Source of the DNA: an uncultured Actinomycetes bacterium
Lineage (GTDB): Bacteria > Actinomycetota > Aquicultoria > Subteraquimicrobiales > CAMTWV01
Assembly (NCBI GenBank): GCA_947085535.1
Contig: CAMTWV010000002.1
Location: 94,199-158,198, forward strand
Length of the DNA: 64,000 bases
Direction: 5' to 3'
Position 1 is the first letter of the stretch, and the number at the start of each line of letters is the position of its first letter. The notes beneath the pieces were generated by a model that was not told where the DNA came from, did not search any database, and was given only the letters and a program-made list of their open reading frames with translations. Positions 87 through 40,266 of the stretch are shown here, piece after piece. Made by a program: the position numbers and the translations under genes.

Positions 87-316
87 TCTGAATACTGCTC
101 CTTAGCTTTTTGGATTTATTATAAACTACAACTGTAAGCTAGTTTATCAAACGTTTGTTCGGAAAACAAGGATTATTTTTTGAGGTTAGTATGGCAAGCC
201 ACAATCTTAAAGATTCAACAAAATGTGGTTTTGTCCTCTGTGGTCGATAGTTGGAAGTCGGGAGCATAATTAACTTCCAGCCATCAGCTAATTCAGGGAT
301 AAGGGATGAGTCTCTA

Positions 317-405
317 GTCTAAAGGGATATTAAAGGGTTTTTCCCTCCAGATTCCTCCCTCTTCGCTAATCCCTCTCCCATAAGCCATAAGCCATAAGCT
401 ATCAG
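317..405 (+). repeat. Copy A of a pyrimidine-rich interspersed intergenic repeat (about 70 nt core), followed by 3 x CCATAAG tandem 7-mers (379-399) and a TATCAGC motif
   Basis: gtctaaagggatattaaagggtttttccctccagattcctccctcttcgctaatccctctcccataagc is about 90% identical by eye to the reverse complement of 39781-39867 and partly to 8767-8815. Confidence 0.7.
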
Positions 406-414
406 CTCTCTGCT

Positions 415-1120: not shown

Positions 1121-1182
1121 CTTTCCCTCCTTTCTGTTGGTTAGGAGTCGAGAGTGTTCCAAATGAAAAAGTAAAAACGCTA

Positions 1183-1200
1183 TGTCTGCCGACAGGCAGG
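1183..1200. repeat. GC-rich palindrome TGTCTGCCGACAGGCAGG (short copy of the hairpin at 39873-39899)
   Basis: 18 of 19 nt identical to 39881-39899. Stem CTGCC/GGCAG. Lies in the AT-rich intergenic region between rodZ and the YkoF-like gene, followed by three spaced TATCAGC motifs (1280-1327). Confidence 0.5.
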
Positions 1201-1340
1201 AAAAATGTAAAATTATAATTAAAAACTAAGAGTGATTTTAAGGCTTTTAAAACATTTTAATCCTTTACCCTTTACCAATACCATCAGCTATCTGCCACCC
1301 GCTATCAGCCATCAACTATCAGCTGGCGACTGATTTTTCT

Positions 1341-2185: not shown

Positions 2186-4315
2186 AGGATTTTTTCTAAT
2201 CTGGTCAAGTTCGTCGGGTGTGATTAAAACTGCCCGAGGTTTGCTTCCCTCATATCCTCCAACAATGCCTCTTTCTTCCATCATATCAATTAAACGAGCA
2301 GCTCGAGAATATCCTATTCGCAATCTTCTTTGCAGCATAGACACAGACGCCATCCCGCTCCTAGCGACAATATCGACAGCATCGTCGAATAGTTTATCTT
2401 CGAAAAGGTCTGCTCCATATTTAGCTTTGCCTGCTCTTAATATTTCTTCATTGTAATGGGGTTTTGCCTGTTTTTTGATAAAGCTTGTAATTAGTTCTGT
2501 TTCTTGCTCGGTAACAAAGGCACCCTGAACCCGCCGCGGTTTAGTTAAACTAGCAGTGGCAAACAGCATATCCCCCTTCCCTACTAATTTCTCTGCTCCA
2601 GCCATATCGAGGATAACTCTTGAATCTGTTTGAGAAGACACAGCGAAAGCAATGCGGGTTGTTATGTTTGCTTTAATAAGTCCAGTGATAATATCTACAG
2701 AGGGTCTCTGAGTAGCAACGACAAGATGAATACCGACGGCCCTTGCCATTTGAGCAATGCGACAAATTGAATCTTCTACTTCATTTGGCGCTGCCATCAT
2801 TAAATCGGCTAATTCGTCAATTACAACCACAACGTAAGGCATAAAAGAATCTTCGCCTCTTGCTTTAAGAGTCGCATTATAAGAATCAATGTTTCTGACA
2901 CCTGCTTCTGAGAGAGTCTCGAAACGGCCTTCCATTTCTCCCACTAACCAGGTTAAGATGGTTGCGGATTGTTTTGGATGAGTTGCCACAGGCGTTAAAA
3001 GATGAGGTATGTGGTTATAAAGATTAAGCTCGATACGTTTTGGGTCGATGAGAATAAGTTTTACTTCGTCGGGTCGAGCACGAGTAAGAATTGAAACAAG
3101 CAAACTGTTTAAACAAATGCTTTTACCTGAACCAGTGGCTCCAGCAATTAAAAGATGGGGCATATCTCCTAAATCAGCTAACACTGGTTGACCAGCAATA
3201 TCTTTTCCTATGCCGATGGTTAAAAGGGAGCGATTTTGTGTCTCGGGGGCATTTAATATATCTCCTATGGTAACTAATTCTCGATACTGGTTGGGAACCT
3301 CAATGCCCACGGCTGATTTTCCAGGGATAGGAGCAAGTATGCGCACATCAGCGGTGGCTAAAGCTAAAGCAATATCGTCTGACAAGCTTAAGATTCGATT
3401 AACTTTAACGCCAGAAGCAAGCTGAATTTCATATCTGGTTACGGTGGGTCCTTTGATTACCCGACTAACTGCAGCATCAACATCGAAATTTCTTAAGGTT
3501 CTTTCGAGAATAGCCACATTTTCTTTAACATCTTTTTTGGCAGCGGACACCGTTGATTTTGGCATAGTTTTTAAGAGCGAAAGAGGTGGAAGTTGATAGG
3601 TCTCTTTTAAAGAAGGTTCGACTTCCATTATCTGAAGCTGGGTTGTTTTTCTTAGAGATTCTTCACCCGGGTAAGGGATTTGCTCAAGTCTTTCAATTGG
3701 TTCGAGAGGAGCTTCCTCGATTATCAGGGGGCGTCCTCCTTTTTCTTCGTAAAGCTCGTCTCTTGTGAAGACAGGCATTTTCTTTGCTTTAAGACCTTTT
3801 AATTTCCCATAAAGTTTAGCAAGTGTTTTTGATGGAGAAATTGTGGTAGAGATAATGACGCCAATTGTGAAAGTCGCCAATAGAACAATGTAGACTCCTT
3901 TTTTAATCAATATGCCGAGTATGTAAGCAAAAAGAGCCCCAACAAGCCCACCATAAGCGTTTATTAAGTCGGGTTCAAAGGCGCGAGAAATAGAAATGTT
4001 CTGGTAATCAAGGGCAATGAAGTGAATTAAAGAAATTAAGCTCACAAAAGAAATTAATAACCCGAGGCCAACTGATTTTCCATCAAGAGTGGTTTTGCGT
4101 CTCATGAAAGCAATTCCCCAGCCTGCTATAAGAAGAGGAACTAAAAATCTACCTACCCCGATTAAAACTCGTAATATTTTTGTGGTGTAAGCTCCAATAA
4201 ACCCTGTAGCGTTACTGAAAATAAAAAGAGCCAGCAAAAGACCTATGGAAATTAAGGCAATGCCGTAAACTTCATCTAAGTATTCTTTTCTTTTGTTTAC
4301 TTTATTCCTGCTCAT
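2180..4315 (-). CDS. ftsK: DNA translocase FtsK/SpoIIIE
   Basis: N-terminal multi-TM region, Walker A GATGSGKS, FtsK alpha/beta and C-terminal gamma (winged-helix) region. 711 aa. Confidence 0.9.
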   Translation of the reverse strand: MSRNKVNKRKEYLDEVYGIALISIGLLLALFIFSNATGFIGAYTTKILRVLIGVGRFLVPLLIAGWGIAFMRRKTTLDGKSVGLGLLISFVSLISLIHFIALDYQNISISRAFEPDLINAYGGLVGALFAYILGILIKKGVYIVLLATFTIGVIISTTISPSKTLAKLYGKLKGLKAKKMPVFTRDELYEEKGGRPLIIEEAPLEPIERLEQIPYPGEESLRKTTQLQIMEVEPSLKETYQLPPLSLLKTMPKSTVSAAKKDVKENVAILERTLRNFDVDAAVSRVIKGPTVTRYEIQLASGVKVNRILSLSDDIALALATADVRILAPIPGKSAVGIEVPNQYRELVTIGDILNAPETQNRSLLTIGIGKDIAGQPVLADLGDMPHLLIAGATGSGKSICLNSLLVSILTRARPDEVKLILIDPKRIELNLYNHIPHLLTPVATHPKQSATILTWLVGEMEGRFETLSEAGVRNIDSYNATLKARGEDSFMPYVVVVIDELADLMMAAPNEVEDSICRIAQMARAVGIHLVVATQRPSVDIITGLIKANITTRIAFAVSSQTDSRVILDMAGAEKLVGKGDMLFATASLTKPRRVQGAFVTEQETELITSFIKKQAKPHYNEEILRAGKAKYGADLFEDKLFDDAVDIVARSGMASVSMLQRRLRIGYSRAARLIDMMEERGIVGGYEGSKPRAVLITPDELDQIRKNPD

Positions 4316-8534: not shown

Positions 8535-8597
8535 TCTGACACCTGCCCGCCATTGGCTATCGCCTTCAGGCGTAGGCAGGCGGGTCAGGTGGTCTGA
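8535..8597 (-). ncRNA. GC-rich nested hairpin in the dapB 5' leader (candidate regulatory RNA structure / REP-like element)
   Basis: Minus-strand RNA: GACCACCUGACCCGCCUGCC...CGCCUGAAGGCG...GGCGGGCAGGUGUC. Long imperfect outer stem enclosing a CGCC-UGAA-GGCG hairpin. About 25 nt upstream of the dapB SD. Confidence 0.4.
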
Positions 8598-8766: not shown

Positions 8767-8815
8767 TTTCCCTCTAGACTCCTCCCTCTTCACTAATCCC
8801 TTTACTATCAGCCAC
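8767..8815 (+). repeat. Partial copy C of the pyrimidine-rich interspersed repeat
   Basis: tttccctctagactcctccctcttcactaatccctttactatcagccac matches the core of 330-378 with about 3 mismatches. Confidence 0.6.
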
Positions 8816-8824
8816 TTTTGACTT

Positions 8825-10090
8825 CTAACCGACTGTCTTTGCAAGTGTTTTTTCATTTACTGGCCCAATAGCTACCAGCAACATTTTTTCAGGTTTAAAT
8901 AAAAGTTTAGCTATCCTTTGCACATCTTCAAGAGTAACTTTGTCAATACGTTTAACTATTTCATCGAGACTTAAAATTTCTCCCTGTGTTAATTCAGACT
9001 TACCTAATCTTATCATTCTGTTGTGCGTGCTTTCCAAACTCAGCACCAACTGTCCTTTTAAATGTTCACGAGCTATATTTAGTTCTTTTTCAGTTACCCC
9101 GTTCTCAGCAATATTCATTAGTTCGTTTTGAGTAATCTTTAAAACTTCTTCGACTTTTGATTTTCTTGTTCCTGCGTAGACAGCAAATAATCCTGAATCT
9201 GAGTATAGCGAATGGTAAGAGTAGACGGTATAGACAAGCCCTCTTTTTTCTCTTATTTCTTGAAATAGTCTGGAGCTCATTCCCCCGCCCAAAATGACAT
9301 CAAGGATAGCCAGAGTAAATCTATCAGCATGTTTAGCTGGAACAGCAGTAGTTCCGTAGCATATGTGGACTTGCTCTGTCTCCCGTGAATTGACAAGCAA
9401 TCCTTTTTTAGGTTTGGATTCAAGTTCCTGTCTTTTGGTTGATGCTAAAGGTGAAGGAGTTTTAGTTTTCGGAAAATGTTTGTTGATTAAATTAACAATG
9501 CTTCTTGTTTCAAGATTACCAGCGGCGGCAACAAGGATGTTTTCAGGAACATAATTCTCACTAAAAAACTCAGAGATATTTTCGCGGTTAAAAGATTTAA
9601 CCGTTTCAATTCTTCCAAGAATGTTTTTGCCCAAGGGGTGATTTTGAAAAAGCGTTGACGCAAAAAGGTCATGAATTAGCTCATCTGGTGTGTCTTCATG
9701 AAGATTTATTTCTTCCAGAACAACATTTTTTTCGGACTCGATGTCTTTTTTGTTTAGAAGTGGATTCTGGAGCATGTCTGCTAATACATCAACCGCAATG
9801 GGAAGATGCTTATCGTGAAAACGAGCATAATAACAGACATACTCTTTTGAAGAAAAGGCATTAATATCTGCCCCTAAAGACTCGAAGATTTCGGAAATGT
9901 CGCGAGATGAGTATTTTTTGGTTCCCTTAAATAGCATATGCTCAATGAAGTGTGAAATTCCTTCATGTTTGTCATTTTCATCTCGCGTGCCCACTTTTAT
10001 CCAGAAACCAAGAGCTATTGATCTCATGTGAGGCATGGGTTCGCTTAATATCTTAATGCCTGAATCAGAATATGAAAAAGTGAAAGACAT
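8825..10090 (-). CDS. M16-family zinc peptidase (insulinase-like, YmxG/MlpA type)
   Basis: Inverted zinc motif HFIEHMLFKGT. 421 aa. Located after pnp as ymxG/mlpA is in Bacillus. Confidence 0.85.
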   Translation of the reverse strand: MSFTFSYSDSGIKILSEPMPHMRSIALGFWIKVGTRDENDKHEGISHFIEHMLFKGTKKYSSRDISEIFESLGADINAFSSKEYVCYYARFHDKHLPIAVDVLADMLQNPLLNKKDIESEKNVVLEEINLHEDTPDELIHDLFASTLFQNHPLGKNILGRIETVKSFNRENISEFFSENYVPENILVAAAGNLETRSIVNLINKHFPKTKTPSPLASTKRQELESKPKKGLLVNSRETEQVHICYGTTAVPAKHADRFTLAILDVILGGGMSSRLFQEIREKRGLVYTVYSYHSLYSDSGLFAVYAGTRKSKVEEVLKITQNELMNIAENGVTEKELNIAREHLKGQLVLSLESTHNRMIRLGKSELTQGEILSLDEIVKRIDKVTLEDVQRIAKLLFKPEKMLLVAIGPVNEKTLAKTVG

Positions 10091-10099
10091 AGAGGTATC

Positions 10100-12196
10100 C
10101 TAAGCTTTATTTGTATCTTCTACTAGTGCAAGGCTAGTTCGGTTTGTCTTTTTATCAAATTCAATGACTTCAACGAGAATTTTATCCCCTGCTTTAACAA
10201 CATCTTCAACAGCCCTTATCCTTTGGCGTGATAGTTTAGAGATATGAACCAACCCCTCTTTCCCGGGAAATATTTCAACGAATGCGCCAAAAGCAGTTGT
10301 TTTGGTGACCGTTCCAAGATATTTTTCACCAACCGCTGGTTCTTTTATTATGCTTTCAACAATTTGTCGAGCGCGCGCTCCATTTATTACGTTTTTAGAA
10401 GCAATATAGACGGTTCCATCGTCTTCGATATCTATGGAGACCCCGGTCTCTTCAATTATGCCTCTTATTATTTTTCCTCCTGGTCCAATTAATTCACCGA
10501 TTTTATCTTTCGCCACTTTTAAAATGTAGATTTGCGGAGCGAATTCAGAAATTTTCTCTCGAGGTGTGGCAATTGCTTCATTCATTTTTTCAAGGATAAA
10601 CAGTCGGGCTCGTTTAGCCTGCTCAAGTGCTTCTTTTAGTATCTCTTTTTTGATACCGGCTATCTTTAAATCCATTTGAAGTGCGGTCACGCCTTTAGTT
10701 GTTCCAGCAACCTTAAAATCCATATCGCCAAGAGCGTCCTCCATGCCTAAAATATCAGTTAAGATAGCATGTTTGTCGCCTTCAACTACAAGACCCATGG
10801 CAATACCACCAACATTTTCCCGAATAGGAACCCCGGCATCCATTAAAGCCATACTGCCTGCGCAGACAGAAGCCATTGAGGTTGAGCCGTTAGATTCCAG
10901 AGCTTCAGCAACCAATCTAATTGTATAGGGAAATTCAACTTCATCTGGAATGAGTGGAAGCAGAGCCCTTTCCGCCAAAGCACCGTGTCCAATTTCCCGT
11001 CTCCTTGGACCACGCAACACACCAGTATCTCCTGTTGAAAAAGGTGGGAAATTATAGTGGTGTATAAATCGCTTTGACTCTTCAGTACCAATGCTGTCGA
11101 TTCTTTGTTCATCGCTTAAAGTTCCAAGCGTTACAGTGCTTAAAACTTGAGTTTGTCCCCGAGTGAAAATTGCAGAGCCATGAGGACGTGGCAAAGGATG
11201 AATCAGACACGAAATTTGCCTGATTTCATCAGTTTTCCTGCCATCAGCTCTCTTATTTTCTTCTAAAATCATTCGCCTAATTTCTTCTTTCTGAATTTTT
11301 TCCAGCGTTTGAACAATATAGCGCTCTTTTCCTTCCAGCATGGTTGTAATTCGTTCAACCGTTTCATCTTCAACTAAAGCAAGTGTTTCTTCTCGCTCCA
11401 GTTTGTCTGGATTTTTTAAGGCTTCTCTGAGTTTATCCGTTGCATGTTCGCGCACTTTATATTCAACTTCGCCCGGGATGGTAATTATTTTGGGCTCCTT
11501 TTTTTGGGTGCCAACCTGAGTTTGGAACTTTTCCTGAAAGTTAATTAACTCTACGATGTACTTATGAGCTTCTTCAAGAGCCTGCATGGTTTCTTCTTCA
11601 GATATTTCATTTAATCCGGCTTCAACCATCAGGATTCCTTCACGGTTGCCGGCAACAGTGACATCTATGTCGCTTTGTTCTAACTCTTGAAAAGTGGGGT
11701 TGACCACCCAGCGATTATCGCACCGACCTATTCGCACAGCGCCTATTGGACCTAAAAAGGGAATATCGGAAATAGAAAGCGCAGCTGAAGCACCTATTAT
11801 AGCAAGCACATCGGGTGGGTTTACCTGGTCAACTGATAAAATACTCGCTATTACTTGAACTTCATTTCGATAACCTTTAGGAAAAGATGGGCGTATCGAC
11901 CTGTCAGTTAATCGGGCGGTTAAGATTGATTTTTCACTAGGTCGCCCTTCACGCTTAATGTAGCCGCCGGGAATTTTTCCTGCAGCATACATTTTTTCTT
12001 CTACATCAACGGTTAATGGAAAAAAATCCGTACCTTCAAGTGGTTTATCTGAAGCTGTAGCTGCTGCTAAAACTACTGTGTCTTCGCATCTGACTAAGAC
12101 ACTTCCGTTTGCCTGTCGGGCAAGTATTCCTGATTCAATAGAAATAGTCTTCCCGCCCAGCAAAATTTCTTCTTTAACAGTGTTTTTTAAATACAT
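10100..12196 (-). CDS. pnp: polynucleotide phosphorylase
   Basis: Two RNase PH domains, KH and S1 C-terminal domains. 698 aa. Follows rpsO. Confidence 0.95.
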   Translation of the reverse strand: MYLKNTVKEEILLGGKTISIESGILARQANGSVLVRCEDTVVLAAATASDKPLEGTDFFPLTVDVEEKMYAAGKIPGGYIKREGRPSEKSILTARLTDRSIRPSFPKGYRNEVQVIASILSVDQVNPPDVLAIIGASAALSISDIPFLGPIGAVRIGRCDNRWVVNPTFQELEQSDIDVTVAGNREGILMVEAGLNEISEEETMQALEEAHKYIVELINFQEKFQTQVGTQKKEPKIITIPGEVEYKVREHATDKLREALKNPDKLEREETLALVEDETVERITTMLEGKERYIVQTLEKIQKEEIRRMILEENKRADGRKTDEIRQISCLIHPLPRPHGSAIFTRGQTQVLSTVTLGTLSDEQRIDSIGTEESKRFIHHYNFPPFSTGDTGVLRGPRRREIGHGALAERALLPLIPDEVEFPYTIRLVAEALESNGSTSMASVCAGSMALMDAGVPIRENVGGIAMGLVVEGDKHAILTDILGMEDALGDMDFKVAGTTKGVTALQMDLKIAGIKKEILKEALEQAKRARLFILEKMNEAIATPREKISEFAPQIYILKVAKDKIGELIGPGGKIIRGIIEETGVSIDIEDDGTVYIASKNVINGARARQIVESIIKEPAVGEKYLGTVTKTTAFGAFVEIFPGKEGLVHISKLSRQRIRAVEDVVKAGDKILVEVIEFDKKTNRTSLALVEDTNKA

Positions 12197-12229: not shown

Positions 12230-12499
12230 TTATCCGCGCAAACCTAATTTTTTAATTACATCATTGTATCTTTTAGGGTCGATTTTTTTGATGTAAGCCA
12301 AAAGACTTCTTCTCTGCCCCACCATTTTAAGTAATCCGTGTCTTGAGCTATTATCTTTTTTGTGGATTTTGAAGTGGCTGGCTAATTTGTCGATTTTTTT
12401 TGTGAGAATTGCAATTTGGACTTCTGGGGAACCAGTATCAGTTGTATGCAGCTTAAAATCGTTAATAATCTTTTCTTTTTCGTCCTTAGCTAAAGACAT
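12230..12499 (-). CDS. rpsO: 30S ribosomal protein S15
   Basis: 89 aa, [17 protein letters not shown]...HLKIHKKD..SRRGLL signature. Confidence 0.95.
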
Positions 12500-12614
12500 T
12501 TTTTCACCTCCCCTTTTTAATCCCGCTTACCAAGAATGCGTTGGTGATTCGCGATCCCAGTGAAACGGTGAAACAGCTTGTTGCCGCTCCATTGTAAAAA
12601 ATAATGATACCATA

Positions 12615-39224: not shown

Positions 39225-39734
39225 CTAAAATAAGCCTGGTATCCTTGACACAACCATTCGTTTTCGTTTTAAGTCAATTTTTTTAATTACTTCTTTAATG
39301 GCAGGTATTAAAATTTCGGTTTGTTCATTCGAAATCACGTAAACATCATTTGCCGGCGTTTTTATTATCTCCTTGATTATACCAAGAAGTTCGCCTTCTT
39401 CCGTAAAAACATCAAGACCAATGATTTGGTAAATCCAGAAGTGTCCTTTGGGCAATTTTTTTGTTTCGTTAGACGGGACTTCGAGCCAATATTCGACAAT
39501 TTCATTTGCTTCGCCTCGATTATTAATTTCTTCAAATTTAACCAGTCCGAAATCGCCCCTAAAAGAAGCATGTTCAACTTTGAGGGTTTGATATTTGCCG
39601 TGTGGCGGATAAACATAGAATATTTGTCCTTTGGCAAATCTTTCAGGAAAATCTGTGTGGCTTGCCACTTTAGTCAAGCCTTTTGTGCCATGAACAGAAA
39701 CAATTTTACCGACAGCTATGAACTCATCAGCCAT
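39225..39734 (-). CDS. rimM: 16S rRNA processing protein RimM
   Basis: FIAVGKIVSVHGTKG...PRZ barrel. 169 aa. Confidence 0.85.
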   Translation of the reverse strand: MADEFIAVGKIVSVHGTKGLTKVASHTDFPERFAKGQIFYVYPPHGKYQTLKVEHASFRGDFGLVKFEEINNRGEANEIVEYWLEVPSNETKKLPKGHFWIYQIIGLDVFTEEGELLGIIKEIIKTPANDVYVISNEQTEILIPAIKEVIKKIDLKRKRMVVSRIPGLF

Positions 39735-39780
39735 ACTATCATTATTAATTGTAAATTGAAAATTGTAAATTGTAAAAAAC

Positions 39781-39867
39781 AGTTAGCAGATGGCAGATAG
39801 CTTATGGGAGAGGGATTAGTGAAGAGAGAGGAGTCTGGAGGAAAAAATCTTTTAGTATCCCTTTAGA
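39781..39867 (-). repeat. Copy D (inverted orientation) of the pyrimidine-rich interspersed repeat
   Basis: The reverse complement reads gtctaaagggatactaaaagattttttcctccagactcctctctcttcactaatccctctcccataagctatctgcc, about 90% identical to 317-385. Confidence 0.7.
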
Positions 39868-39872
39868 CTTCC

Positions 39873-39899
39873 TGCCTGCCCTGTCTGCCGACAGGCAGG
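39873..39899. repeat. GC-rich hairpin GCCTGCC(C)TGTC-TGCC-GACAGGCAGGC adjacent to repeat copy D
   Basis: About 11-bp stem with one bulge. Shares the 19-mer TGTCTGCCGACAGGCAGG with 1183-1200. Resembles the CCTGCCCGCC...GGCGGGCAGG stem at 8535-8597. Confidence 0.55.
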
Positions 39900-40035
39900 C
39901 ATCAGACACGGTAGACCCATCCCTTTTCCCTAAATTAACTGGAAGCTGGTAACTGTGCTATTAGCTATCGAGGCTGTAAAGCTGAGCTATGTCGCTATGT
40001 CGAGAGACGATTGAAATAAAGAAGGCGGATAAAAA

Positions 40036-40266
40036 TCAATCGATAATTTCAACAATTGCTCTTTTGTTTTCTTTAGCTGCGGCAGCTCCCACAATTACTC
40101 TAAGGGCTTTAGCTATCCTTCCCTCTTTACCGATTACTTTACCAATGTCGTCGGGAGCAACTTTTAATTGCAAAATGACAGATTTCGCACCTTCTACTAT
40201 GCTAACATCAACTTCCTCGGGAGTGTCCACAAGCGCTCGGGCTAACGTCTCTAACAGTTCTTTCAA
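40036..40266 (-). CDS. KH-domain RNA-binding protein (YlqC/UPF0109)
   Basis: 76 aa, VIGKEGRIAKALRVI GXXG loop. Confidence 0.85.
   Translation of the reverse strand: MKELLETLARALVDTPEEVDVSIVEGAKSVILQLKVAPDDIGKVIGKEGRIAKALRVIVGAAAAKENKRAIVEIID

What the first reader, a model, noticed from the sequence alone, without database searches (positions are those of the whole stretch)
317..405. Novel pyrimidine-rich interspersed repeat family (at least 3 copies in 64 kb, both orientations)
A core of about 70 nt, GTCTAAAGGGATAYTAAARGNTTTTTYCCTCCAGAYTCCTCYCTCTTCRCTAATCCCTCTCCCATAAGC, occurs at 317-385 (+), 39798-39867 (-) and, as a 3' half, at 8767-8800 (+). It is each time followed by TATCAGC / TATCTGCC-type motifs. 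Copy A additionally has 3 x CCATAAG. All copies lie in the few long intergenic spacers of an otherwise tightly packed region. They are unrelated to the flanking genes and are not in a constant orientation relative to transcription, which is MITE/REP-like behaviour. The purine-rich complement (GGGAGAGGGATTAGTGAAGAGAGAGGAGTCTGGAGG) is packed with GGA/GGAGG motifs. If transcribed, it could sequester CsrA-like proteins or anti-SD sequences; the alternative is a mobile or recombinogenic repeat.
Basis: seen in the sequence. Interest (0 to 1): 0.5.

Follow-up and report, generated by a model that had tools for sequence, protein, structure and literature searches.

The report
Heptad-phased interspersed intergenic repeat cassette
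A roughly 100-base non-coding DNA cassette, built on a 7-base rhythm and ending in a variable 7-base tandem tail, sits in both orientations in the few long gene spacers of an uncultivated low-GC actinobacterium and in one sister-class genome. It behaves like small mobile or recombining "junk" DNA rather than a regulatory RNA, so it is a new example of a familiar kind of thing.

Summary
The repeat is real. There are two full copies (277-374 +, 39811-39949 -) and one half copy (8767-8801 +), none expected by chance. A/B identity is 86%, not 90%.

The reported 70-nt core is the better-conserved half of a ~98-nt cassette ("X"). X has a heptamer-like lead, a G-tract half, a C-tract half ending in CTAATCCCT, and then a tandem heptamer tail (CCATAAG/CTATCAG). 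The tail length varies between metagenome samples. The core itself is 7-nt periodic (p<=2e-4).

A fourth copy lies in a 50%-GC MAG (UBA9087), where its tail replaces the cobU stop codon.

In a sister genome with 97.7% identical flanks, the same KH-rimM spacer holds a different AT-rich cassette ("Y", also at window 1167-1267). Y ends in the same TAATCCCT plus heptamers. Small GC-rich hairpins are nested in X and Y.

I found no Rfam family and no hit in phage, plasmid, viral or metagenome collections. There is no transposase in the window, no target-site duplication, no covariation, and the hairpin is thermodynamically unremarkable.

Best reading: a lineage-restricted, non-autonomous mobile or recombinogenic repeat (MITE/REPIN-like in behaviour, but failing tested REPIN criteria). 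The CsrA/anti-SD sponge idea has no support.

The parts
277..374 (+). X copy A, full cassette. It has a heptamer-like lead (277-294, CCAG CCATCAG CTAATTC), a G-tract half (295-337, AGGGATA AGGGATG AGTCTCT AGTCTAA AGGGATA...), a T-run, and a C-tract half (341-374) ending in CTAATCCCT. It is antisense to the flanking minus-strand genes.
   Evidence: Identical in 5 other metagenome samples. Lag-7 identity is 0.43 versus 0.25 background.
375..412 (+). Heptamer tail of copy A (CTCCCAT.. CCATAAG x3, CTATCAG, CTCTCTG). It ends 2 nt from the stop codon (415-417) of the 103-aa gene.
   Evidence: TRF. Length polymorphism of +14 nt (two extra units) in L003, L004 and L006 relative to the window, L005 and L007. 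Gene end.
39811..39949 (-). X copy B, full cassette, 139 nt including a nested insertion. It is in sense orientation between the KH-domain gene (40036-40266) and rimM (39225-39734).
   Evidence: Present in all 6 samples examined, with one SNP and small indels.
39871..39911 (-). 41-nt GC-rich hairpin (CCGTGTCTGATGCCTGCCTGTCGGCAGACAGGGCAGGCAGG) nested between the two AGTCT heptads of copy B. It is absent from copies A and D.
   Evidence: Alignment. It accounts for the significant fold z-score of B.
39735..39810 (-). Heptad-phased tail of copy B (CTCCCAT AAGCTAT CTGCCAT CTGCTAA ... TACAATT x4). It runs up to the rimM ATG, and no Shine-Dalgarno sequence is visible.
   Evidence: (period 7 at 39747-39776).
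8767..8801 (+). X copy C: the C-tract half only (TTTCCCTCTAGACTCCTCCCTCTTCACTAATCCCT). There is no G-tract partner and no fold. It is 96% identical to the UBA9087 copy but only 85% to A and B.
8802..8824 (+). Tail of copy C (TTACTATCAGCCAC...). It directly abuts the stop codon (8825-8827) of the M16 peptidase gene.
1167..1267 (+). Related module Y: an AT-rich imperfect palindrome. Its other known copy occupies the place of X in the KH-rimM spacer of the sister genome (L032). It ends in TAATCC-T like X.
1180..1200 (+). 21-nt GC-rich hairpin (CTATGTCTGCCGACAGGCAGG) nested in Y. It is absent from the L032 copy of Y.
1262..1330 (+). Heptamer tail of Y (CCTTTAC x2, then CCATCAG CTATCTG CCACCCG CTATCAG CCATCAA CTATCAG). 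It ends 11 nt from the stop of the RodZ-like gene.
   Evidence: lag-7 identity 0.58.
8546..8590 (.). GC-rich hairpin (CCTGCCCGCC...GGCAGGCGGGTCAGG) in the same spacer as copy C. It is of the same kind as the nested hairpins.

Best explanation
The 70-nt core is the conserved C-rich half of a ~98-nt non-coding cassette (X). X is one of several interchangeable repeat modules that fill the few long spacers of this OPB41-lineage (Aquicultoria-like) actinobacterium. The other modules are an AT-rich module Y, small GC-rich hairpins, and heptamer arrays.

X is most likely selfish, non-autonomous DNA. It has no gene of its own. It is copied or exchanged between spacers, and occasionally between related genomes, and it lands next to gene ends. 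Its tandem heptamer tail then grows and shrinks by replication slippage.

The route I think most likely is inferred, not shown. Either X is mobilised in trans as folded single-stranded DNA by an HUH/Y1-type enzyme (IS200/IS605 or RAYT-like), which needs no terminal inverted repeats and leaves no target duplication. Or X is swapped by recombination at the shared TAATCCCT-heptamer tail.

Any effects on expression would be by-products rather than the reason the element exists. These include a stem-loop in the transcript, GGAGG-rich or CCUCC-rich tracts, and stop codons in all frames supplied by the CTGATAG-type tail.
For: Shown:
- The family has 3 copies in 64 kb, in unrelated spacers and both orientations, with none expected by chance.
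- A fourth full copy lies between cobU and cobQ in MAG UBA9087 (GC 50.6% versus 38%). That contig shares no other DNA with the window.
- Half copy C is 96% identical to the UBA9087 copy but 85% to A and B in its own genome. Subfamilies therefore predate or cross genomes, which argues against local duplication.
- In L032, whose flanking genes are 97.7% identical, the KH-rimM spacer aligns on both sides. The middle holds Y instead of X, and both end in TAATCCCT plus heptamers.
- More distant relatives have a third element there (L008) or an 89-nt spacer with no element (L009-L011).
- In UBA9087 the tail overrides the native cobU stop and adds 5 codons (MADGR*). Relatives end 4-5 residues earlier. 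This is an insertion footprint.
- GC hairpins are nested in X (in B but not in A or D) and in Y (in the window but not in L032).
- The tail is a length polymorphism within the population.
- All three full copies keep the same two-helix topology, with 97% of cells paired versus ~50% when the partners are slid.
- A Y1 transposase flanked by palindromes exists in a related MAG (L013).

Inferred: the mobilising enzyme and the direction of transfer.
Against: - No target-site duplication is visible.
- The arm complementarity is weak. Fold energies of the core are not better than shuffles (z -0.3 to -1.7; z -0.8 and -1.95).
- No transposase or Y1 homolog is in the window or next to any copy.
- Sites A and B are occupied in every sample examined, so there is no presence/absence polymorphism within the population.
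- Only four loci are known.
- Pattern scans found the core in only 1 of 185,579 species genomes. They found nothing in viral contigs, and the only metagenome hit was a chance match inside an asparagine-synthetase-like coding sequence.
- Genome-wide copy number is unknown and could be low.
- The X/Y swap could be homologous recombination rather than transposition.
Confidence: 0.55

Rival explanations
1. X is a cis-acting RNA element selected for a function in the transcript. Candidate functions are an mRNA-stabilising or processing stem-loop, a Rho-loading C-rich/G-poor tract, or an SD/anti-SD mimic that tunes translation of neighbouring genes.
For: - The C-tract half is very well conserved, even between genomes of 38% and 50% GC (96% between C and D).
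- Six of seven substituted helix positions (six G-U, one A-C) remain pairs on the strand that carries the C-tract half, which is the pattern expected for a structure read on that one strand.
- The element always abuts a gene end.
- The purine strand carries GGAGG motifs and the other strand carries CCUCC.
Against: - The strand in the mRNA sense differs. It is purine-rich in A, C and D, and pyrimidine-rich in B.
- Copy C lacks the partner arm and does not fold.
- There are no compensatory changes.
- Folding is not better than shuffles.
- There is no Rfam hit, even at E<=5.
- X is replaced by an unrelated AT-rich cassette at the rimM site in a 97.7%-identical genome.
- The G-U bias is about p=0.06 and comes from a structure chosen to maximise pairing.
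Confidence: 0.15
2. X is not mobile as a unit. It is a diverged block of an old heptamer microsatellite array. It is inherited vertically in the OPB41 clade and shuffled between spacers only by homologous recombination or gene conversion among heptamer-rich spacers.
For: - The core itself is heptad-phased. Lag-7 identity is 0.43-0.50 versus 0.25, with p<=2e-4.
- The same heptamer family occurs in three lineages, including one without X (L016-L018).
- UBA1414, UBA9087 and RBG-13-55-18 form one monophyletic group (PMC7325909).
- The swap boundaries at the rimM site lie in heptamer sequence.
- The copies are fixed in the population.
Against: - The same specific order of about 14 different heptads is kept in copies at unrelated loci and in two classes, which independent slippage would not produce.
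- C is closer to the UBA9087 copy than to A or B.
- The cobU stop codon is overridden by the tail in one lineage only.
- 96% identity across genomes with a 12-point GC difference is hard to reconcile with neutral vertical descent.
Confidence: 0.2
3. X is an independently transcribed small RNA gene whose GGA/GGAGG-rich strand titrates CsrA-like proteins or ribosomes.
For: There are five GGA motifs and two GGAGG-like motifs on the purine-rich strand.
Against: - No sigma-70-like promoter or intrinsic terminator frames any copy.
- The GGA motifs lie mostly in predicted stems rather than in loops.
- Orientation relative to the operons varies.
- There is no Rfam family.
- To my knowledge (not tested here), Actinomycetota generally lack CsrA.
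Confidence: 0.04

Closest known systems
REPINs / REP sequences mobilised by RAYT Y1 transposases (PMC3337134, PMC3116915)
   Same: About 90-100 nt, non-coding and extragenic. Two halves can pair into a hairpin. Found in both orientations. Solo halves occur as decayed remnants. No target duplication. Stable over long times in a lineage. A RAYT-like Y1 gene flanked by palindromes exists in a related MAG (L013).
   Different: The arms of X are not themselves short palindromes; the C-tract arm has almost no G. The hairpin is no more stable than shuffled sequence. No RAYT flanked by X was found. X has a clear polarity and a tandem heptamer tail, which REPINs lack.
Bacterial MITEs, and from my own knowledge IS200/IS605-derived palindrome-associated elements (PATEs)
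   Same: Miniature, non-autonomous, intergenic and multi-copy, with subfamilies shared between genomes and nested insertions.
   Different: No clear terminal inverted repeats, no target-site duplication and no recognisable parent IS. The core is built from 7-nt phased units.
Intergenic heptamer direct repeats: TAACTGA arrays of Beggiatoaceae, Cyanobacteria and Bacteroidetes (PMC4679880), and cyanobacterial STRR heptamers (my own knowledge)
   Same: Tandem 7-nt units in spacers. They are often immediately next to start codons where no canonical RBS is seen, as at rimM here. Array length is variable, and the patchy phylogenetic distribution suggests transfer. The units contain stop codons.
   Different: The unit sequence is different (CYATMWG). 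Here the arrays form the tail of larger conserved cassettes (X and Y) rather than standing alone.
Small dispersed repeats of Nostoc punctiforme (Elhai et al. 2008). I cite this from my own knowledge; the literature search shows only that PMC3116915 uses the term.
   Same: Tiny hairpin-forming insertions of about 20-40 nt found nested inside other repeats, like the GC-rich hairpins in X and Y.
   Different: Different sequence and phylum. This comparison applies to the nested hairpins, not to X itself.

Membership tests
REPIN | Two REP units, each a short imperfect palindrome, in inverted orientation | tested here: not met
   The C-tract arm (341-374) contains almost no G and cannot self-pair. 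Copy C, which is that arm alone, folds at 0 kcal/mol. The arms are only loosely complementary.
REPIN | [quoted passage not shown] | tested here: inconclusive
   The same two-helix topology is seen in A, B and D, with 97% of cells paired. However, the energy is only -10 to -13 kcal/mol as DNA, with z -0.3 to -1.7 versus shuffles.
REPIN | A cognate single-copy RAYT gene flanked by the same repeat | not testable with these tools
   There is no Y1 homolog in the window or in the fetched loci apart from L013. The L013 Y1 gene is flanked by an unrelated palindrome, TTATCACCTACGCGGTGATAA. The whole genome was not available.
MITE | Terminal inverted repeats | tested here: not met
   The outermost conserved parts are direct-oriented heptamers: the lead CCAGCCATCAGC and the tail CCATAAG/CTATCAG. 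The reverse-complement self-match of the profile is only E 0.02-0.07.
MITE | Target-site duplication flanking each copy | tested here: not met
   No duplicated flank is seen in A, B or D (alignments). The junctions at the X/Y swap show none either.
MITE | Presence/absence at orthologous sites | tested here: met
   At the KH-rimM spacer, X is in the window, Y is in L032 (97.7% identical flanks), another element is in L008, and no element is in L009-L011. Within one population the sites are fixed.
MITE | Autonomous partner element with matching ends | not testable with these tools
   No match in the plasmid, phage or viral collections. A whole-genome search was not possible.
Heptamer direct-repeat arrays (TAACTGA/STRR type) | Tandem 7-nt units in intergenic DNA with variable copy number | tested here: met
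   TRF finds period 7 at 378-399, 1262-1323 and 39747-39776. The unit sequence differs from TAACTGA, so this is an analogy and not membership of that family.
Any Rfam RNA family | Covariance-model score at or near the gathering threshold | tested here: not met
   No hit at the three loci at the gathering threshold or at E<=5. None at the L002 copy either.
CsrA/RsmA-titrating sRNA | Own promoter and terminator, with GGA motifs exposed in hairpin loops | tested here: not met
   No framing promoter or terminator. The GGA motifs are mostly in predicted stems. Whether a csrA gene is present could not be tested.

The most novel reading that the evidence does not exclude
X and Y are two members of a polar element class that share a 3' recognition module (TAATCCCT plus a heptamer microsatellite tail). 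They would be copied from that end by a tail-primed mechanism, either retroposition-like or one-ended rolling-circle/peel-and-paste. That would explain the 5'-truncated copy C, the variable tails, the absence of target duplications and inverted ends, the landing of the tail exactly on gene ends, and the interchangeability of X and Y at one site. This would be a bacterial counterpart of SINEs that borrow the 3' tail of their partner.
Probability: 0.06. Interest if true: 0.8.

Novelty: new variant of a known kind. Interest (0 to 1): 0.4.

Why it matters
Small interspersed repeats are well studied in proteobacteria and cyanobacteria but essentially undescribed in the deep-branching, uncultivated OPB41 actinobacterial classes. 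This family shows several unusual features.
- A conserved cassette whose core is itself 7-nt phased.
- A slippage-prone tail that abuts coding sequence (its stop codon for A and C, the rimM start codon for B) and can even supply the stop codon of a gene.
- Cassette swapping at one site between near-identical genomes.

If the family is followed genome-wide, it could serve several purposes.
- It could reveal how such elements move without inverted ends or target duplications.
- It would give strain-typing markers for these MAG-only organisms.
- It would explain recurrent assembly breaks in their metagenomes.

It does not, on present evidence, open a new biological principle.

Tried and rejected
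1. Small ORF on the purine-rich strand (MGEGL[A/V]KREESGGKN..., about 20 aa in A and B). Four of the seven A/B differences in this frame are synonymous. However, copies C and D have no start codon in that frame and stop at different places, and there is no SD upstream. Rejected, from reading.
2. Known RNA family. Rfam at the gathering threshold and at E<=5 gave nothing at the loci.
3. More copies by DNA pattern.
   - The genome-contig scan gave one hit (L002).
   - The first metagenome scan gave nothing.
   - The second metagenome scan gave only a chance hit inside an asparagine-synthetase-like coding sequence (L023).
   - The viral scan gave nothing.
   - Plasmids and phages gave nothing.
4. 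More copies by fetching DNA from relatives (L008-L018, L031, L032) and about 3 kb beyond the window's right end (L019-L022). None were found.
5. Link to the Y1 transposase of L013. Its flanking palindromes are unrelated to X, and there is no homolog in the window.
6. Covariation. Three full copies give no compensatory pair, and the shuffle control is uninformative.
7. Significant hairpin. Only copy B is significant, and that is due to the nested GC hairpin.
8. Presence/absence within the population. Both sites tested are occupied in all samples.

Full report
**Observation.** The three copies are real and at the stated places. The 31-nt core pattern matches at 344-374 (+), 8771-8801 (+) and 39811-39841 (-), with 0.00 matches expected in shuffles. 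A and B are 86% identical over 86 nt without gaps. C matches A and B at 85% over 46-48 nt. CCATAAG x3 at 378-399 and the TATCAGC/TATCTGCC motifs are there. Nearly all genes in the window are on the minus strand, so A and C are antisense to transcription and B is sense. An nhmmer profile built from the full copies finds nothing else in the 64 kb.

**Anatomy.**
A 277-313 aligns with B 39913-39949 (81%), and B carries a 41-nt GC-rich hairpin (39871-39911) between the two parts.
- The unit, which I call X, is about 98 nt. It has a lead (CCAG CCATCAG CTAATTC), a G-tract half (AGGGATA AGGGATG AGTCTCT AGTCTAA AGGGATA), a T-run, and a C-tract half (CCCTCCAGATTCCTCCCTCTTCGCTAATCCCT).
- X is followed by a tandem heptamer tail, (CCATAAG/CTATCAG/CCATCTG)n.
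- The G-tract and C-tract halves can pair in two helices that are the same in all full copies, with 97% of cells paired versus about 50% for slid partners.
- There is no compensatory change. As DNA or RNA, the core folds no better than dinucleotide shuffles (z -0.3 to -1.95). Only B is significant, because of its nested hairpin.
- Copy C is the C-tract half alone and does not fold.
- The core itself, tail excluded, is 7-nt periodic. Lag-7 identity is 0.43, 0.45 and 0.50 in A, B and D against 0.25 +/- 0.05 (p<=2e-4 by shuffling). At most 0.2% of genomic windows reach these values.

**Context.**
- Copy A's tail ends 2 nt from the stop of a 103-aa gene.
- Copy C's tail abuts the stop of an M16 peptidase gene.
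- Copy B lies inside the rpsP-KH-rimM-trmD-rplS operon. Its heptad-phased tail runs up to the rimM ATG.
- There is no Rfam match at gathering thresholds or at E<=5. No promoter/terminator pair frames a copy.

**Where else it occurs.**
- One exact-core hit was found in 185,579 species genomes. It is contig DNCG01000024.1 of MAG "Actinomycetota bacterium UBA9087" (L002, GC 50.6% versus 38% here). This is a full copy between cobU and cobQ, and there is no other DNA similarity to the window.
- Its C-tract half is 96% identical to copy C, while C is only 85% identical to A and B. Subfamilies are therefore shared across genomes.
- In L002 the tail overrides the native cobU stop. CobU ends ...KVKMADGR*, and homologs end at ...K(G), which is 4-5 residues earlier.
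- Nothing was found in viral contigs, phages or plasmids, and the only hit in metagenome contigs was a chance coding-sequence match.
- The nearest named RimM homolog is from Ca. Subteraquimicrobiales, class Ca. Aquicultoria (64% identity).
- UBA9087 is a sister class-level clade of UBA1414 and RBG-13-55-18 in the OPB41 lineage (PMC7325909).

**Population and orthologous sites.**
- Locus A is identical in five further samples of the same study, except that the tail carries two extra heptamers in three of them.
- Locus B is occupied in all six samples, with a SNP and small indels.
- The decisive comparison is L032 (GCA_964480305.1), whose flanking genes are 97.7% identical to the window. Its KH-rimM spacer aligns with the window on the left up to ...CTCGATAGCTAATAGC and on the right from GCCATCTGCTAACTG.... 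In between it carries an AT-rich imperfect palindrome (Y) instead of X.
- Y is also present in the window at 1167-1267, where a 21-nt GC hairpin is inserted that L032 lacks.
- X and Y both end in TAATCC(C)T followed by heptamers.
- A more distant relative (L008) has yet another element, of about 250 nt, in this spacer. L009-L011 have an 89-nt spacer with no element.
- The same heptamer family and GC-rich hairpins occur without X in a third lineage (L016-L018).

**Interpretation.** Several features together are the behaviour of non-autonomous mobile or recombinogenic DNA rather than a locus-specific regulator.
- Copies sit in unrelated spacers and in both orientations.
- Subfamilies are shared across genomes of different GC content.
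- There is a truncated copy.
- Smaller elements are nested inside X and Y.
- There is an insertion footprint on cobU.
- The cassette is replaced at an orthologous site in a near-identical genome.

I put this reading at 0.55. The mechanism is inferred. The lack of inverted ends and of target duplications, the polarity, and the G-T-tolerant folding on one strand fit single-strand HUH/Y1 transposition. A RAYT-like Y1 gene flanked by its own palindromes exists in a related MAG. However, no enzyme is linked to X, and recombination at the shared tail would explain the X/Y swap equally well.

**Rivals.**
- A selected cis-acting RNA (0.15). Inconsistent strand, a non-folding half copy, no covariation and dispensability at rimM argue against it.
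- A passive, vertically inherited block of an old heptamer array shuffled by recombination (0.2). The heptad phasing and the fixation in the population support it. The conserved order of about 14 distinct heptads at unrelated loci, and the C/D similarity, argue against it.
- A CsrA or ribosome sponge sRNA (0.04).

**Comparison with known families.** X works like a REPIN or MITE but fails the tested membership criteria for both. Its arms are not palindromic REPs. It has no terminal inverted repeats and no target duplication. The cognate transposase could not be tested. Its tail resembles the intergenic heptamer arrays described in Beggiatoaceae and Cyanobacteria (PMC4679880) in form and in position next to start codons lacking an RBS, but the unit sequence is different. 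I therefore call it a new variant of a known kind.

**Limits.**
- Only four loci are known.
- Genome-wide copy number, transcription and current activity could not be examined.

Noticed in passing
window 1167-1267 (+); L032 3962-4060: An AT-rich imperfect palindrome "Y" (AAATGAAAAARTAAAAACG..AAAAATGTAAAA..GCTTTYAAAACATTTT). It has two known copies, about 78% identical over the best 68-nt BLAST segment. A minus-strand sigma-70-like site, TTAAAA-18-TATAAT (1241->1212), lies inside the window copy, upstream of the thiamine-binding-protein gene.
   Followed up: partly
window 1180-1200, 8546-8590, 39871-39911; L016 and L018 downstream of cobU: Small GC-rich hairpins (..TGTCTG..CCTGCC..GGCAGG.. or GCCCGCC..GGCGGGC) in an AT-rich genome. 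Two of them are clean insertions relative to other copies of their host repeat. This looks like a separate family of tiny REP/SDR-like elements.
   Followed up: partly
L008 about 1200-1470; L013 about 9305-9545: A GC-rich element of about 250 nt (TTATTAACAA..ACACGCGGTCGGCC..GGGTCTCGCC..GGCTCCGACAC..GTTAA) is shared by a Subteraquimicrobiales MAG (in its KH-rimM spacer) and a UBA9087-related MAG (downstream of cobU). It is not in Rfam. It could be a structured RNA or a MITE.
   Followed up: no
L013 10559-11200: A 213-aa Y1_Tnp protein with HUH (HIH) and YIHLNP motifs. It is flanked on both sides by the palindrome TTATCACCTACGCGGTGATAA, which is a RAYT/REP-like arrangement in this lineage.
   Followed up: partly
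L031 and L032, immediately after the KH stop (L032 about 3826-3883): A 58-nt terminator-like hairpin insertion (..GGAACTAAGAAATTCTGTCTTAGTTC TTTCTTT) is present in the sister genome and absent from the window.
   Followed up: no
window 39735-39780: rimM has no visible Shine-Dalgarno sequence. The 45 nt before its ATG are (TACAATT)-type heptamers. This resembles what is reported for TAACTGA repeats upstream of start codons (PMC4679880).
   Followed up: no
window about 259 (ends of L003, L005, L006 and L007): Four of the five Logan contigs that cover locus A stop at exactly the same base, about 18 nt beyond the left edge of X. The fifth, L004, ends inside the heptamer tail. This suggests an assembly-graph branch, meaning strain-level structural variation in 100-259.
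   Followed up: no
L015 2267-2296 versus L002 3690-3722: Two CobU proteins that are 98-99% identical both have heptamer-encoded C-terminal extensions (GADS* versus MADGR*). The DNA after the heptamers differs: TTATCCTGAGCGACC in L015 versus X in L002. This may be a second cassette swap, but the contig ends after 29 nt.
   Followed up: partly
L016 7400-8140: A direct duplication of about 250 nt that contains GC-rich hairpins and heptamer arrays, downstream of cobU in GCA_030651595.1.
   Followed up: no
window 12443-12559 (-): A sub-threshold Rfam hit to the ribosomal S15 leader (23 bits, gathering score 39.5), in the spacer upstream of the 698-aa gene at 10100-12196.
   Followed up: no
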